A stretch of DNA of 64,000 nt from Girardia tigrina. Its lineage: Eukaryota. The stretch is taken from positions 1 through 64,000 of the forward strand of contig MQRK01254807.1 in the NCBI GenBank assembly GCA_001938485.1, in the 5' to 3' direction. Made by a program: the position numbers. This document shows positions 42,904 to 49,300 of the stretch, piece by piece. Every line of letters begins with the position of its first letter. The first letter of the stretch is position 1.

Positions 42904-45900
42904 AAACAAGCTAATTAAAAGAATGGAAAAATAATTGTTTATTACGTTTTATTTAGCTTTATTTCGCTTACGAATGATATTTGAGCATACGAATTCTCGA
43001 CGAATAGATCTGAGTGCCGATGCGAGGCAATATTCTTTTGATCAGTCAGATGGAATATTACAATATATTAACCGCAAAAGTAAAAGAAACTCACAGAAGC
43101 ATATTATTCTTGATTTAAAAGTCGAAGAGTCTAAGAAAAGAATTATACAACAAATGGATGAATTGAAAATGGACAGGATTGATTATCATTATCTAATCAC
43201 AGAAATGGTAATAATCAATATTATTATTACGCATTACATAATTAAATAAAAAATATTTTATTATTATCAGATCTTTTATAAATAAAAATTAATTTATACA
43301 CCAAAAATTCTTTTTAGATCAAATTTTTATACATCAATTTTTGTGTTTGTTTTACTGCAGGATATATTTCTCAATTATTAATTTGAATTTGAAACTATTT
43401 CAGTTTATACAAATTATGGTGGATTTGATATTGATATTCCTACAGAAAACTATGGATTCTTAACCAAACGATCTAATAAAATAATAAATATCCAAATTGA
43501 TTCTGTATTTTAAATGACAGTTACTTATTGTGGTACAAATGAGACAAAACATCCAAAATGGAAAAGTCCAAATATTTCTTTACAAAGCCTCTATTTATCT
43601 AAATAACTGTATCAAAAGAGAGATTGTGGACAGCAACCAGTATTTTTGTTTCATAATCATGATTACCACCTTCCAATCGAATTTGAAAACCTGCGATTCA
43701 AATAGATTGGTTGTGATGAGAATCGGCTGACAGGCTAAGATTCGGTTGTGTTTGACTGTTCCTTACGTAGAATGTGCTAAAAGAATTAATTTTCAGACAT
43801 CGAATGAAATATTAAATTTTAATGGGATATTCAATTATTTTCCAATCATCGAGGTTGAATTATGAAAACATTATGAATTGTTAATCAATAGTTTGATGAA
43901 TTAGAATCAGTTTCCTATCAGTTACCTATCTCTTATTACATGTTTTCTAAAGGTTTATATCTGAGATGAAACATTCAAAATTCAAAAAGATCATTTATTA
44001 TAAACTATTATTAAATAAATTTTCTTTTGGTGTATATATTTGTAAGTAGTTATGCTTTCATTTGTTTTTGCTTTTGTACACCATGTGATTTTATAATGTA
44101 AATACAAATGTAACCAAACTTCACACAAAAATTGTATGTATTAAAAGGAAAATTAAAAAGAAAAAAATTATTAAACAGAAAAATCATGTATACATATATA
44201 TAAAATTAAGATTAATATTTGGATTTATTATCTGATTTGATAATTTAATTTTAGATTGAATGTTAAAATTTATTTTAAATTTCATTTCGTTGTAAAATTT
44301 TAAATGATTTTAATAATTTATTTAAAATTTTTAAATGAATTGATAATTTTGAAATTAACTTGAATTCATTTTAGTAAAATATTTACAATATTAGTTTATT
44401 TTTTTAAAATTTAAATGCATTTTAATTTAGACCAATGAGACTCCTACAAATATGTTTTAAATATATAAAAGTGTCGAATTTTGATTCAGATAATTAGAAA
44501 GATATACCAATCTAGATATTTGTAAATTAGTGAATGTCATGATAAGAATTGTTATGAAAACATTTCAATTCCAATATATATATATNNNNNNNNNNNNNNN
44601 NNNNNNNNNNNNNNNNNNNNNNNNNNNNNNNNNNNTATATATATATATATATATATATATGTTGTATAAACCAGAAAGATGTCTCGAAACGTTTTACATG
44701 ATCAATATTAAAACACTATTTATAAACAATAAAAAATCCTGGAAGAGAAATATTTATATACTGTAGAGTCTTTAGTTCACTAAATAAATGAATATATATG
44801 TCGGCACCAGTTGATTGTTTGGGGCCAGTATTAATTTGGGAGTGATTCATTAATCTGTCACCAACAAGCGGTTGATTACAAACAAATCTTATAAATAGAA
44901 ATAATTATCATACAAAATAATAACTAATATAATGTAATAATAATACATATTAAATTAAAATTAAAAAAATATCTGTATGAAAAATTTAAATATAATTTTT
45001 AAAAAGATACGTTAATCAATAAAAAAATAATGTCTCCTTACCAACATAATTTAACATTGTTTTTGTTGCCATATAATAAATTATCGTTCTAAGCAAAAGA
45101 AAAGGAATAAAGAAGAAAATCAAACAAAATCAAAGATCAGGTAGTTCATACTATAAAATCCGAAGAAATTGTTCTGCAAATGTCAATTTCATTCAACCTA
45201 AGACTTCCCAATATATATTTTCTTATTGTCAATCTCTTCAAAACAGATTTACAATAGTGAGAAACAATCACACCCTTAGAAAGCTCTGTGCTTCAAGGGG
45301 CATATTGATCATTCTATTTCACTAACAATTTAGAGAAACTAATTAATTCAAAAATGACCTCCATCCTACTTCCTTTTATTTATATAGTGATGAAAGTATC
45401 AATCTTCTTTTTTATCCTTTCTGTTTCTAGATTGTTAGTAATAATATAATTTAAATTACAATTATCATTATTCGTATTCTATTTATTGTCAAAAGTGAAT
45501 TCACTGAATTATTATTATTCCTTTGGTGACCCGACAAATGCGCACCGACAAATGAGCACCGACAAATGCGCACCGACACATGCACGCACGACAAATATTA
45601 TTTACTTTTTGCTAAAAGTGTTTTTGGAGTAAAAAATTACTAGATGCTTTTGAAAGGTTTTTATTATTATTAACTTATTGCTTAAAATATTTTTGAATTA
45701 TAAAATTAATAAATACTTTTCAAATATTTTTTATTATTATTTATTTATTCATAAGTGCTAATTACAAATCTATCAAAACACTGGTATGTATGATTGAACA
45801 TCTTACTTCTATCAACTTCAGAAAAATCCGTTCATAGTCAAACTGCATTTTTGTTCTCATTAGTACATAAATCAAGGGAATTGACCGATCATCAATTAAA

Positions 45901-46288
45901 ACATGTAGAAATAATTCTGGAGATACTTTGAACGGTGGGTGGTGGTGTATGGCCGTTCTTAGTTGGTGGAGCGATTTGTCTGGTTAATTCTGTTAACGAA
46001 CGAGACTCTCACCTGCTAAATAGTACATTTGTGTTAAATCGCAAATGCTGACTTCTTAGAGGAATAAATAGCGTTTAGCTAAATGAAATGGAGCAATAAC
46101 AGGTCTGTGATGCCCTTAGATGTCCGGGGCCGCACGTGCGCTACAATGGCAGTACCAGCGAGTTTTATTCCTAGCTAGAAATGGCCGGGTAACCTGCTGA
46201 ATCACTGTCGTGTCAGGAATAGTGGATTGAAATTATCCCACTTGAACGAGGAATTCCTAGTAAGCGCAAGTCACTAGCTTGCGCTGAT

Positions 46289-46334
<46 letters not shown>

Positions 46335-49300
46335 AGTGCCATCCATAAACTAGTGTGGATACTGCTCCAACAACTCCTAATTCGTTGTTGTACCAAATAT
46401 GAAGATTCTATTTGTGTCTTCTTCACCGGAGTCCCAAATAATAAAATTTTCAGAACGTATTATTACTTTCATATTCTCAGGAAGAATTATGTCTTTAACA
46501 GATTTTGGCCTGGGATTGTTAATATCAGCTCTCTTTCGTCTTCTCTCTATGCATCTTTCACTTGATGAATATGACGGTAGCAGGTGAGCTAATTCCAGTG
46601 GAACTCCTGTTGTAATCTTCAAAATGATTTTTCGAGGTTTTTCAACGTTGTTCACACCACGTTCACGTATATTTGATTTGATTTTTTCAAATTCATTCTA
46701 ATAATTGTCTGGAGAATGTATATGATGTTCAATCATACTCAATCAATATTCAGTACTGTACTATTAGTTTCTGTCCTCACTCTTCCAGCTCACTGGTTTG
46801 ACACATCTCCATGAAGATGATCCGTCTTCTTTTTGTCTGTTACAAAGATATATAAACCCTTCATAAAGGAATTGGTCCTTTCCTTTTTGTGACTTCATTA
46901 TGTTCATAATATTTGAAGTTAATTTATTAGTCTTTTGTATTTTAAAACAAATTTGTATTTCAAAAATATTTTTAGCAAAAAGTAAATAATATTTGTCGTG
47001 CACGCATTTGTCAGCGCGCATTTGTCAGGGTACCGTTTACTTTTACACATACTAATTGAATTTTCAGCATTTATTTCCTGTTAATTACAAAGTGCATGAT
47101 GAACTAATATTAATTTGTTCAGGATGCTTTGGAAATAAACAGCTCATTTATCAGAAATGGTGGAATGAACTTTACGATATTTTCCCCCATCGATTATGAC
47201 AATCCCGTGTTAAAACAGTTTATGGATCTACAATGGTACACTCCACAGATGAAATCCAAATATCCTTTCTTATTAAATGAACATCAGAGTGTAAGGAGAA
47301 TACCGGTAAAATTAACTATTTTTTACTTAAAGAAGCCATAAAGGAAAATATTTATTCAAATTTTAATATTTAACCCAATTATGTTTAACTTATACCGATT
47401 TTTATCACATTCTTATTATTATCATTGTTTTATAAGTCAAGTTAGAGTGAAATGGTCTCTTCATCTATACCTGACGTATCCTAGTAAGACGTAACGCACT
47501 GAATTTGAATTATTAAGGCATAAAAAGCTGAAATGTCATGTCCATGTTTAATATTTGTTAGATTGAGATATTTGAGTTTGTCACTCATTTAAAAAAAGGT
47601 ATATGACATAAATTAAAAATACTCCATGCAACATGTTTACAAGAACCATTACCCATTGCTATCTTTATACAAGGTATTATTAGAAGAAAACAAATTATAC
47701 CATAGTTGTTTCAGACATTAGAAGTCGATTTCGAAGTTTCGTTATCAATAAAATTATCTGATAGTAAACTTCGGCTTCCTTCGCAACACTTACTGCACGA
47801 AGCGATACGCGTTCTCTAACCGTAAAGACAATGTGAAATACTATTTTTTCTTGTTTAAGTCGAAAAAACAATACGAGGGTTACAACAATATAGTTAATTT
47901 AAAAACCAAATCTAAGTTATTAATCTTACATTTATACATCACGTATTAATGCTATCTAGTTGAAATATGGTTATTTCACGTAATATACTATTAGTGATTT
48001 ATGACATAAATAATGAATGAACAACCTTTTTTACAACAGGGCCAATGACAACGTTTTGCATGGAGTACACATAAGAAACGTAAGAAAGTGTAAACACTGT
48101 AATAACTATATTATAATTACTATATTATAAACACAAATTCTCTATTTATTAAAGAAAATGACATTATAACGTTAAAAAATGCAAATAAAATACATTAAAT
48201 AATGCTATAAAATAGTAAGTAGCGTTTATGTCACTTTCATTATTATCACATTCTAAAGTCATAATTTAACACCACAAAATTTATTAATATCAACAATTCA
48301 CATACTTAAACAAATTTCTTATTAATTCAGTTATTTCGCCCCAAATTAATTCATAAATATTTTCGATTAAATTTTGAAAATTTACGAAATTTAAACTTCA
48401 AATTATATTTATATTTTTTTACGAAAATTTAAAAAATTATTTTGTTAAAAAATTATTTCTTTAATATTAATGCGTTAATTATTTATTTAAAATTTATTTA
48501 AAATTATTTCATAACTTTTATCAAAATATATCAATTCTTATTACTGTAAACAAATTTTAAATAAGTATTTATTTATCATATTTTTACTCTACATTTTAAT
48601 TTTTTAATTTATTTCTTTTAAATTTTCAAATCAAAAAAATAATAAATTATTTTGGCGAAACTTAAATTTAAACTAACCCCTCATAAAAATAAAAGCAAAA
48701 CATAATTTTTATGGAAAAAAGAGTACACAAATTTTAATGAGAAGTTTATGGGTGCTTATTTTCAATCAAATGGTCCGTAGTCTCAGAAATAGACAATGTA
48801 GGGCTCCCATCTCCTTCGAATGGTATTGAATCGTTAGACTCTTTAGAGGGTCCACCTAAACTAAAGAGTAACTAGCAGACCCTCGATAGGCTTCCTACGG
48901 CCACAAAAGGGACAACTGAACTCGCCCCTTACTGTGAGATCTGCAATCGAAAAAGTCAGATGTGTTTCTTCAGTACCTATCGCTTCCTCCACCGCCGCCA
49001 AGACACGCGAGAATCCATCATGGATTAATGTTTTCCTGAAATGTTGAGGTTTTCTTCGACTATTTCTTCTGTGTTACTTGTTGTACGGTTTTGCGCTGGT
49101 GTTACTATCGGTTCTTCAATTTCTTCTGTCTCCTTCAATTTATGATCCCGGTTGAGGTGCCTGGTTAGCCTACTCTACCTTTTAGATGACTTTTTACACA
49201 GTGTGCCTGGGAATGATAATTCCTGTTGTTGTTATGTCTCATTTGGCTGATCAGAATAAGGGGAAGCGGACACCACATGGTTCCTTTTGATGTGTCTTTT

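What the first reader, a model, noticed from the sequence alone, without database searches (positions are those of the whole stretch)
45525..47034. 18S rRNA fragment inserted precisely into the catalytic DGT|F motif of a MULE, inside a glutamate receptor intron
Seen: on the minus strand the transposase reads FMDGT, then about 402 bp of antisense 18S (45933-46334), then continues FKVSPELF with no host bases lost, no target duplication and no poly-A. The AGTG at the right junction could be microhomology. Both TIRs remain. Inference: this is a templated capture of rDNA or rRNA cDNA at a double-strand break, producing a Pack-MULE-like unit that could spread 18S sequence in trans. The receptor pre-mRNA would carry it in sense orientation, and any MULE transcript would carry it antisense. 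It includes the GTACACACCGCCCGTC universal primer site. Dugesiid planarians are known to carry two 18S types, so the donor type can be tested.
Basis: partly seen in the sequence, partly recalled or inferred. Interest (0 to 1): 0.72.

Follow-up and report, generated by a model that had tools for sequence, protein, structure and literature searches.

The report
18S fragment inside dead planarian transposon
A 402-base piece of the small-subunit ribosomal RNA gene sits inside a long-dead Mutator-type transposon, between exons of a planarian glutamate receptor gene; it is most likely a one-off scar of DNA break repair and not a vehicle that spreads rRNA sequence.

Summary
Rfam finds one eukaryotic SSU rRNA match in the window (292 bits, + strand). 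Published Schmidtea mediterranea 18S oligos cover 45933-46334/5 end to end: three 40-mers give 116 of 120 by tool, and six tiling oligos give 392 of 403 by eye, with no indels. The flanks belong to one minus-strand FLYWCH-MULE copy with both TIRs. They map to adjacent residues 187 and 188 of the nearest relative, P0001. None of 150 relatives has anything between T and F of the conserved D-G-T-F. There is no target duplication and no poly-A, and junction overlap is 0-1 base. The copy lies between receptor exons on the + strand. Capture at a break is the best reading, but as end-joining of a free 18S-derived fragment. The transposase remnant has 6 in-frame stops and lacks its 3' part. That is far more decay than the insert's 2.7% (P about 2e-4), so the copy was probably already dead. 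Pack-MULE-like spread has no support and could not be tested, because no planarian genome collection was available. The 18S donor type is unresolved. This is an ordinary kind of event in a tidy example.

The parts
45525..47034 (-). Non-autonomous, decayed FLYWCH-MULE (Mutator-like) transposon copy, 1510 bases including the nested 18S piece
   Evidence: Inverted repeats at both ends (terminal 30 nt 83% complementary, 78-nt arms 86%). The 11-base TIR subrepeat occurs 5 times, all in the two ends, against 0.47 expected. FLYWCH Pfam hit. Pieces align to the FLYWCH+MULE protein P0001.
46949..47034 (.). TIR at the element's own 5' end, with two 14-nt subrepeats
   Evidence: (I1, I3, D8)
45525..45638 (.). 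TIR at the element's own 3' end, with three 14-nt subrepeats
   Evidence: (I1, I3, D2)
45596..45749 (.). 69-base subterminal tandem repeat, 2.2 copies, 80% matches. It repeats the inner part of the TIR.
   Evidence: (D1, D3, D4, I2, I7)
45765..46907 (-). Transposase remnant, given as one part. Breaks: 6 in-frame stops, 1 nested insertion (the 18S piece), 1 in-frame 5-residue gap relative to P0001, no frameshift seen, and 1 large loss of the whole 3' part (nothing beyond the equivalent of P0001 residue 248; full-length relatives have about 460 residues).
   Evidence: The closest relative, P0001, is 61-69% identical to the three stop-free pieces, each compared apart.
46797..46898 (-). FLYWCH zinc-finger domain of the transposase remnant
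   Evidence: Pfam PF04500, E 3e-6, 27.7 bits against a cut-off of 23.6
45933..46334 (+). 18S rRNA-derived fragment, sense on the + strand. It covers Rfam model positions from about 1268 to just past 1664 of 1831 and ends about 136 bases short of the 18S 3' end. One further base (46335) could belong to either partner.
   Evidence: By-eye comparison with the tiling oligos 29-34: 392/403, no indels.
42935..43246 (+). Nearest detected upstream exon-bearing open segment of the ionotropic glutamate receptor gene (ANF_receptor profile 154-216)
   Evidence: E 5.5e-4, below the Pfam cut-off; supported by the neighbouring exons
50800..50952 (+). Nearest detected downstream exon-bearing open segment (ANF_receptor profile 320-349)
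   Evidence: E 1.8e-6, 27.7 bits
50985..51961 (+). Receptor exons for the glutamate-binding and channel domains. Three open segments were searched one by one: 50985-51308, 51340-51699 and 51662-51961.
   Evidence: Lig_chan-Glu_bd 2.4e-21 and 1.5e-11; Lig_chan 9e-18 and 1.6e-21. tblastn with coral P0002.

Best explanation
A free double-stranded fragment derived from the animal's own 18S was ligated by classical, homology-independent end joining into a clean double-strand break. The fragment was either a piece of rDNA or a cDNA of rRNA; the two cannot be told apart here. The break happened to lie in an old, already inactive MULE copy sitting between exons of a glutamate receptor gene. Nothing was lost or duplicated, so the transposase remnant continues at the very next codon. 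The result is a passive nested fossil: an orphan 18S pseudogene fragment, analogous to a nuclear mitochondrial insertion. Its position in D-G-T/F has no functional meaning. Its only likely effect today is that the receptor pre-mRNA carries about 400 bases of sense 18S, which rRNA-depletion oligos and read filters will recognise.

Shown: the identity and bounds of the fragment; the exactness of the junctions; the decay of the host element.
Inferred: the repair pathway; the order of events; the in-situ origin.
For: Identity: 292 bits to SSU_rRNA_eukarya. 116/120 against three S. mediterranea oligos. 392/403 with no indel against six tiling oligos (by eye).

Junctions: flanks map to P0001 residues 187 and 188. 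0 of 150 relatives have an insertion there. In-register overlap with the donor is 1 base at one junction and 0 at the other, with no flanking repeat and no A-run.

The fragment is internal to 18S, with no ETS or ITS, and ends about 136 bases before the 3' end.

Order of events: 6 in-frame stops in 191 codons against 0.84 expected at the insert's divergence, P 2e-4; at the upper 95% bound of 4.8%, P 4e-3. TIR arms show 11 mismatches in 78 against 4.2 expected, P 0.004.

3 of the 11 differences fall on positions that are upper-case in the Rfam consensus and where the S. mediterranea oligos agree with that consensus. A functional gene would not tolerate these.

Precedent: in yeast, fragments of rDNA, mtDNA and Ty cDNA of 22-492 bp are captured at breaks by NHEJ, and in aged cells the nuclear donors are mostly rDNA (PMC11372161, passages).
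Against: The age argument assumes equal neutral rates, an intact ORF and perfect TIRs at the start, and that the published S. mediterranea 18S is the donor. At the upper bound of 4.8% per arm the TIR test is not significant (P 0.14). AT-biased mutation would raise the rate at which stops arise.

The species of the window is not established, and the type II 18S was not available. Some of the 11 differences may therefore be donor variants and not decay: three are clustered within 4 bases of a variable region, and the changes show no AT bias (4 towards AT, 5 towards GC, 2 neutral; by eye). That would make the insert younger still, which does not hurt the main reading.

The 403-base count is by eye. 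No reads or other genome copies could be examined, so single-copy status is unproven.
Confidence: 0.6

Rival explanations
1. Templated repair. A broken end invaded rDNA (or annealed to rRNA), about 400 bases were copied, and synthesis switched back to the element, as in synthesis-dependent strand annealing or microhomology-mediated template switching.
For: Filler DNA copied from elsewhere is a known outcome of gap repair in DNA transposons (recalled, not read here). At one junction 3 of 4 bases agree between element and 18S.
Against: Only 1 base of perfect in-register overlap at one junction and 0 at the other. Returning to the exact next base with no loss is not what template switching usually leaves. 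The fragment ends have no homology to the element.
Confidence: 0.15
2. Pack-MULE-like transduplication. The 18S piece was acquired by a still mobile non-autonomous MULE, which then transposed to this locus and perhaps to others, carrying 18S with it.
For: Both TIRs are present. A possible decayed 9-base target duplication, 6 of 9 identical, P about 0.03 before correction for the 4 sizes tried. MULEs are known to acquire host fragments (PMC6446971, passages).
Against: The insert is much less diverged than the ORF remnant and the TIRs. The fragment sits inside a retained transposase remnant and does not replace it. No second copy of the TIR motif or of 18S is in the 64 kb.
Confidence: 0.12
3. 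Retroposition of rRNA by a LINE-type reverse transcriptase (target-primed reverse transcription).
For: rRNA is the most abundant RNA. Retroelement remains are present in the window.
Against: No poly-A and no target duplication. The fragment lacks the 18S 3' end, stopping about 136 bases short.
Confidence: 0.05
4. Assembly or read chimera that joins rDNA reads to the transposon.
For: rDNA is a common source of chimeric joins. No reads could be examined.
Against: The same element resumes at the very next codon on the far side. The piece differs from published 18S at 11 of 403 positions, 3 of them at otherwise conserved sites, as expected of a genomic pseudogene and not of reads from working rDNA. 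No N run lies in 45000-47600.
Confidence: 0.03

Closest known systems
Capture of rDNA, mitochondrial DNA and retrotransposon cDNA fragments at double-strand breaks by non-homologous end joining (yeast; PMC11372161, passages read)
   Same: A fragment of a few hundred bases from a highly abundant donor, with little or no microhomology, no target duplication and no tail. rDNA is a recurrent donor.
   Different: Here it is a fixed germline event in a planarian, seen once and inferred from sequence alone. The break was not induced and the pathway was not tested.
Dispersed rDNA-like pseudogene fragments outside rDNA arrays (human; PMC5381670, passages read)
   Same: A piece of rRNA gene away from the arrays that has escaped concerted evolution and is decaying.
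   Different: The human cases are mostly large units with spacer, lie near centromeres, and have no known route. This one is a short internal 18S piece with exact junctions that suggest a route.
Pack-MULEs of plants (Jiang et al. 2004; seen only as cited in passages of PMC6446971)
   Same: A non-autonomous MULE with TIRs that holds a fragment of a host gene.
   Different: Pack-MULEs have lost the transposase gene and carry host fragments in its place, and they occur as transposed copies. Here the fragment is nested in a retained, decayed transposase remnant and looks younger than the copy. No other copy is known.
FLYWCH-bearing MULE groups of Schmidtea mediterranea (groups 16 and 20 in Table 1 of PMC6446971, passages read)
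   Same: FLYWCH finger plus MULE domain, one ORF, TIRs of tens of bases, and a 9-base target duplication reported for the family.
   Different: This copy is truncated and stop-ridden. Its target duplication is at best 6 of 9. Assignment to a named Repbase family could not be tested.

Membership tests
MULE (Mutator-like) DNA transposon | Transposase with the MULE DDE domain (PF10551) | tested here: met
   The window's own 56-residue piece gives no Pfam MULE hit. It does align at 61% (E 5e-23) to P0001 residues 188-248, inside P0001's PF10551 match at 182-273. D-G-T-F is kept in 137-148 of 150 relatives.
MULE (Mutator-like) DNA transposon | Terminal inverted repeats | tested here: met
   Terminal 30 nt 83% complementary and 78-nt arms 86% complementary. 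The subrepeat is found only at the two ends.
MULE (Mutator-like) DNA transposon | Target site duplication of 8-11 bases (9 in S. mediterranea groups; PMC6446971) | tested here: inconclusive
   9-mers are 6 of 9 identical. 3.1% of random flank pairs reach this, before correction for the 4 sizes tried.
MULE (Mutator-like) DNA transposon | Complete transposase (autonomous element) | tested here: not met
   6 in-frame stops, a nested insertion, and nothing beyond the equivalent of P0001 residue 248, whereas relatives have about 460 residues.
Pack-MULE | Host gene fragment between MULE TIRs | tested here: met
   The 18S piece lies between the TIRs.
Pack-MULE | Transposase gene lost and replaced by the host fragment | tested here: not met
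   About 247 codons of transposase remnant flank the fragment on both sides.
Pack-MULE | Transposed after capture (same capture at several loci with their own target duplications) | not testable with these tools
   No planarian genome or read collection was available. Within the window there is no other copy. The relative ages argue against it.
Orphan rRNA pseudogene fragment captured by end joining | Derived from the rRNA gene, away from rDNA, without spacer | tested here: met
   292 bits; 392/403 to S. mediterranea 18S oligos; both flanks are transposon.
Orphan rRNA pseudogene fragment captured by end joining | Junctions with 0 to a few bases of overlap, no duplication, no tail, no loss | tested here: met
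   1 and 0 bases of overlap; no flanking repeat; adjacent residues in P0001.
Orphan rRNA pseudogene fragment captured by end joining | Released from selection | tested here: inconclusive
   3 of 11 differences are at positions conserved in both the Rfam consensus and S. mediterranea. The sample is small and the donor variant is unknown.
LINE-mediated processed retrocopy | Poly-A tail, target duplication, 3' end of the RNA included | tested here: not met
   None of the three is present.
Functional SSU rRNA gene | Full length within an rDNA unit | tested here: not met
   About 402 of about 1800 bases; model positions from about 1268 to just past 1664 of 1831.
Ionotropic glutamate receptor gene (host) | ANF_receptor, Lig_chan-Glu_bd and Lig_chan domains in order on one strand | tested here: met
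   Six + strand open segments, searched one by one. Coral receptor P0002 aligns to 50976-52216 and 54413-54562.

The most novel reading that the evidence does not exclude
The composite is, or recently was, a trans-mobilisable Pack-MULE-like element that copies an antisense 18S segment around a planarian genome. Transposon-directed small-RNA pathways would then see antisense rRNA sequence. This would be the first rRNA-carrying Pack-MULE described in an animal.
Probability: 0.07. Interest if true: 0.6.

Novelty: new member of a known kind. Interest (0 to 1): 0.3.

Why it matters
As biology it is a clean, datable example of an rRNA-derived fragment fixed at a repaired break in an animal germline. 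Its junctions are exact to the base, because the interrupted sequence can be read in relatives. A census of such insertions could show which end-joining routes act in planarians, whose stem cells carry the germline.

There is also a practical side. About 400 bases of near-perfect sense 18S sit inside a receptor gene. Three of the 88 published depletion oligos match it with 0-3 mismatches. Intron-containing transcripts of this gene can therefore be co-depleted, and stray rRNA reads can be mapped here. Kim et al. report 11 planarian genes hit by 20 of their rRNA oligos (PMC6884822, section 11), so such fragments may not be rare.

Tried and rejected
Pfam on the 56-residue piece after the insert: no MULE hit, only a chance zinc-ribbon at E 0.23. 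The link to MULE had to go through P0001.

Word-indexed protein search with the 104-residue piece, longer proteins: 1 hit among 131 candidates.

Search for the receptor's own protein with the glutamate-binding exon: 1 coral protein at 38% among 46 candidates. Its tblastn found no amino-terminal-domain exons.

Looking for the missing ANF_receptor exon(s) near the element: 0 relevant hits in 16 open segments at E up to 10. The Atlas look-alike search of the 75-residue segment just beside the element gave a best score of 0.87, to bacterial methylases, which is a chance-level lead. I therefore cannot say how close the nearest exon is.

Donor type I against type II: the two published S. mediterranea templates are cut at 400 characters, and neither paper says which type is which. 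Within the insert they differ at 1 visible position, where the insert agrees with the rDNA-unit template.

A tool count over the six adjoining tiling oligos was left out, because typing them would have split up one sequence. That count is by eye.

Literature searches turned up no paper describing an 18S piece in a planarian transposon. That is weak evidence of absence.

Rejected as chance: the mir-3202 match (32 bits against a gathering score of 90).
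Full report
WHAT IS THERE

At gathering score Rfam reports 1 match in the whole 64-kb window among 4227 families. It is the eukaryotic small-subunit rRNA, on the + strand, at 283.6 bits against a threshold of 50. A laxer scan at E up to 0.01 adds only a chance microRNA match elsewhere.

On the 1.8-kb stretch the match is 45865-46307, 292.4 bits, model positions 1156-1664 of 1831. 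The printed alignment shows that the first 68 bases are a poor, gappy extension. The clean alignment begins at 45933. It ends at 46307 only because the pairing partner of the last helix is missing.

BOUNDS AND DONOR

Two papers on rRNA depletion in Schmidtea mediterranea list antisense oligos in their supplements. Three 40-mers of Kim et al. (PMC6884822, supplement 1) hit the insert with 0, 1 and 3 mismatches, and nowhere else in the window.

The tiling set of PMC11275719 (supplement 1, part 1 of 2 read) covers the piece end to end with its 18S oligos 29 to 34. I read these by eye, twice, in blocks of ten. They match 67/67, 68/69, 66/69, 68/69, 64/68 and 59/61, which totals 392 of 403 (97.3%; 95% interval for the difference 1.4-4.8%) with no indel.

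Beyond 45933 the oligo and the window part company at once. At the other end the next 18S base is the same as the third base of the threonine codon, so one base (46335) is ambiguous.

The piece is internal to 18S and stops about 136 bases short of its 3' end, which is the length of oligos 35 and 36. It carries no spacer, no A-run and no flanking direct repeat.

Of the 11 differences, 5 are transitions and 6 are transversions, and three sit within four bases of a variable region. Three fall on positions that are upper-case in the Rfam consensus and unchanged in the S. mediterranea oligos.

The species of the window is not proven. Kim et al. state that 18S differs by no more than 4% between planarian species (passage).

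THE HOST ELEMENT

Positions 45525-47034 are bounded by inverted repeats: the terminal 30 nt are 83% complementary and the 78-nt arms are 86% complementary. A 14-nt subrepeat occurs three times at one end and twice at the other. Its 11-base core occurs 5 times in the window, all here, against 0.47 expected. One end also has a 69-base subterminal tandem repeat.

The nearest relative found is P0001, 365 residues, with FLYWCH at 4-60 and the MULE domain at 182-273. I compared the three stop-free pieces apart. They align to P0001 residues 1-37 (65%), 70-172 (69%) and 188-248 (61%, with one 5-residue gap). P0001 itself reads through residues 187 and 188 without interruption.

The family is large: 16,930 representatives at E up to 0.001 and 1,154 at up to 1e-30. 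I aligned 151 proteins, namely P0001 and the best 150. D, G, T and F are kept in 148, 144, 137 and 139 of 150 rows. None of the 150 rows has any residue between T and F.

The insert therefore sits exactly between two codons of a strongly conserved motif at the start of the MULE domain. That this D is the first catalytic aspartate is established knowledge of the family and was not tested here.

STATE OF THE TRANSPOSASE GENE

The remnant carries:
- 6 in-frame stops;
- 1 nested insertion;
- 1 in-frame 5-residue gap;
- no frameshift seen;
- 1 loss of the entire 3' part, where relatives run to about 460 residues.

The copy is non-autonomous.

A 9-base target duplication is at best 6 of 9 identical (P 0.03 before correction for the four sizes tried). 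Nine bases is the size reported for S. mediterranea FLYWCH MULEs (PMC6446971, Table 1, passage).

SURROUNDINGS

On the + strand lie exons of an ionotropic glutamate receptor:
- ANF_receptor profile 41-132 at 34668-35012;
- ANF_receptor profile 154-216 at 42935-43246;
- ANF_receptor profile 320-349 at 50800-50952;
- Lig_chan-Glu_bd and Lig_chan at 50985-51961.

A coral receptor adds 51737-52216 and 54413-54562.

I searched these exons one by one. The joined step was left out, so no spliced model was tested.

The element lies in the 7.5-kb gap between the second and third of these exons. The exon or exons for profile positions 217-319 were not found. 'Intron' is therefore the likely reading but is inferred.

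The window has 8 runs of N (1134 bases). None lies in 45000-47600, and they were left as they are. Nothing in the window looked human.

HOW IT MOST LIKELY AROSE

Exact insertion with no loss, no duplication, no tail and 0-1 base of overlap is the signature of a free fragment ligated into a clean break by classical end joining. In yeast exactly this happens with rDNA, mitochondrial DNA and Ty cDNA fragments of 22-492 bp, and in aged cells the nuclear donors are mostly rDNA (PMC11372161, passages). Whether the fragment here was DNA or a cDNA of rRNA cannot be told.

Order of events. If the transposase remnant had decayed only as much as the insert (2.7%), 0.84 new stops would be expected in its 185 sense codons. 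Six are seen (P 2e-4; at 4.8%, P 4e-3). Six become likely at 15-25% divergence.

The TIR arms differ at 11 of 78 positions against 4.2 expected (P 0.004; at 4.8% per arm, P 0.14).

Both tests rest on assumptions: equal neutral rates, an intact ORF and perfect TIRs at the start, and the right donor. They point the same way. The copy was dead, and probably already at this locus, when the 18S piece arrived. Its place in the catalytic motif is then a coincidence.

RIVALS

- Templated synthesis with template switching (0.15). The junctions lack the expected homology.
- Pack-MULE-like capture before transposition (0.12). The relative ages and the retained transposase remnant argue against it, but only a genome census can settle it.
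- LINE-mediated retroposition (0.05). No tail, no duplication, and the 3' end is missing.
- Chimera (0.03). The element resumes at the next codon, and the piece carries pseudogene-like changes.

COMPARISON AND NOVELTY

It works like end-joining capture of abundant DNA at breaks, and like the orphan rDNA fragments described in the human genome (PMC5381670, passages). The review of rDNA and transposons (PMC10946416, passages) mentions transposons that carry rDNA fragments.

It fails one defining feature of a Pack-MULE, which is replacement of the transposase. Another, transposition after capture, could not be tested.

My six literature searches found no report of an 18S piece in a planarian transposon. 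I file it as a new member of a known kind.

WHAT STAYED UNCHECKED

- Copy number in the genome.
- Reads across the junctions.
- Donor type. Carranza et al. 1996 and 1999 were seen only as references and in the statements of PMC6884822.
- The species.
- The PDF supplement of PMC6884822, which could not be read and may show which genes its rRNA oligos hit.
- The metagenome and viral collections, which were closed.
- The bacterial and archaeal genome collection, which was not used because it cannot hold a planarian locus.

VERDICT

Interest is 0.3.

Noticed in passing
window 36792-37277 (+): An open 162-codon segment with a retroviral-type aspartyl protease domain (gag-asp_proteas, E 9e-9). It is the only retroelement domain found among the 42 + strand open segments scanned between 36213 and 41576, so it looks like a retroelement remnant and is probably the virus-like stretch the operators mention. 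Described only.
   Followed up: partly
window 40012-40983 (+): An open 324-codon segment with a Tc5/pogo-type DNA-binding domain and a DDE_1 domain. It is a pogo-like transposase lying between the first two detected receptor exons.
   Followed up: no
window 11481-11753 (-), 26789-27412 (+), 28964-29380 (-), 32080-32997 (+): Four mariner-type transposase fragments (Pfam Transposase_1, E 1.5e-14 to 8e-6). The window is dense in DNA transposon remains.
   Followed up: no
window 155-433 and 13608-13904 (+); 25291-25746 (+): Two exons of a 2-oxoacid dehydrogenase E1 component gene (E1_dh profile 110-192 and 191-276), separated by about 13 kb, and an exon with a calcineurin-like phosphoesterase domain.
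   Followed up: no
window 53702-54247: A 99-base tandem repeat, 5.5 copies, 95% matches. It lies between the receptor exons found at 51737-52216 and 54413-54562. The weak Pfam hits on the minus-strand ORF there look like low-complexity noise.
   Followed up: no
window 61215-61941, both strands: Four overlapping ORFs of 175-236 residues on both strands with no Pfam match. Unexplained.
   Followed up: no
window 45988-46027: The two published S. mediterranea 18S templates differ at one visible position inside the insert. The insert agrees with the rDNA-unit template and not with the one labelled SmedAsxl_18s_rRNA. Neither paper says which is type I or type II.
   Followed up: partly
window 17781-17841 (+): A weak match to the mir-3202 family, 32 bits against a gathering score of 90, E 0.0085. 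Taken as chance.
   Followed up: no
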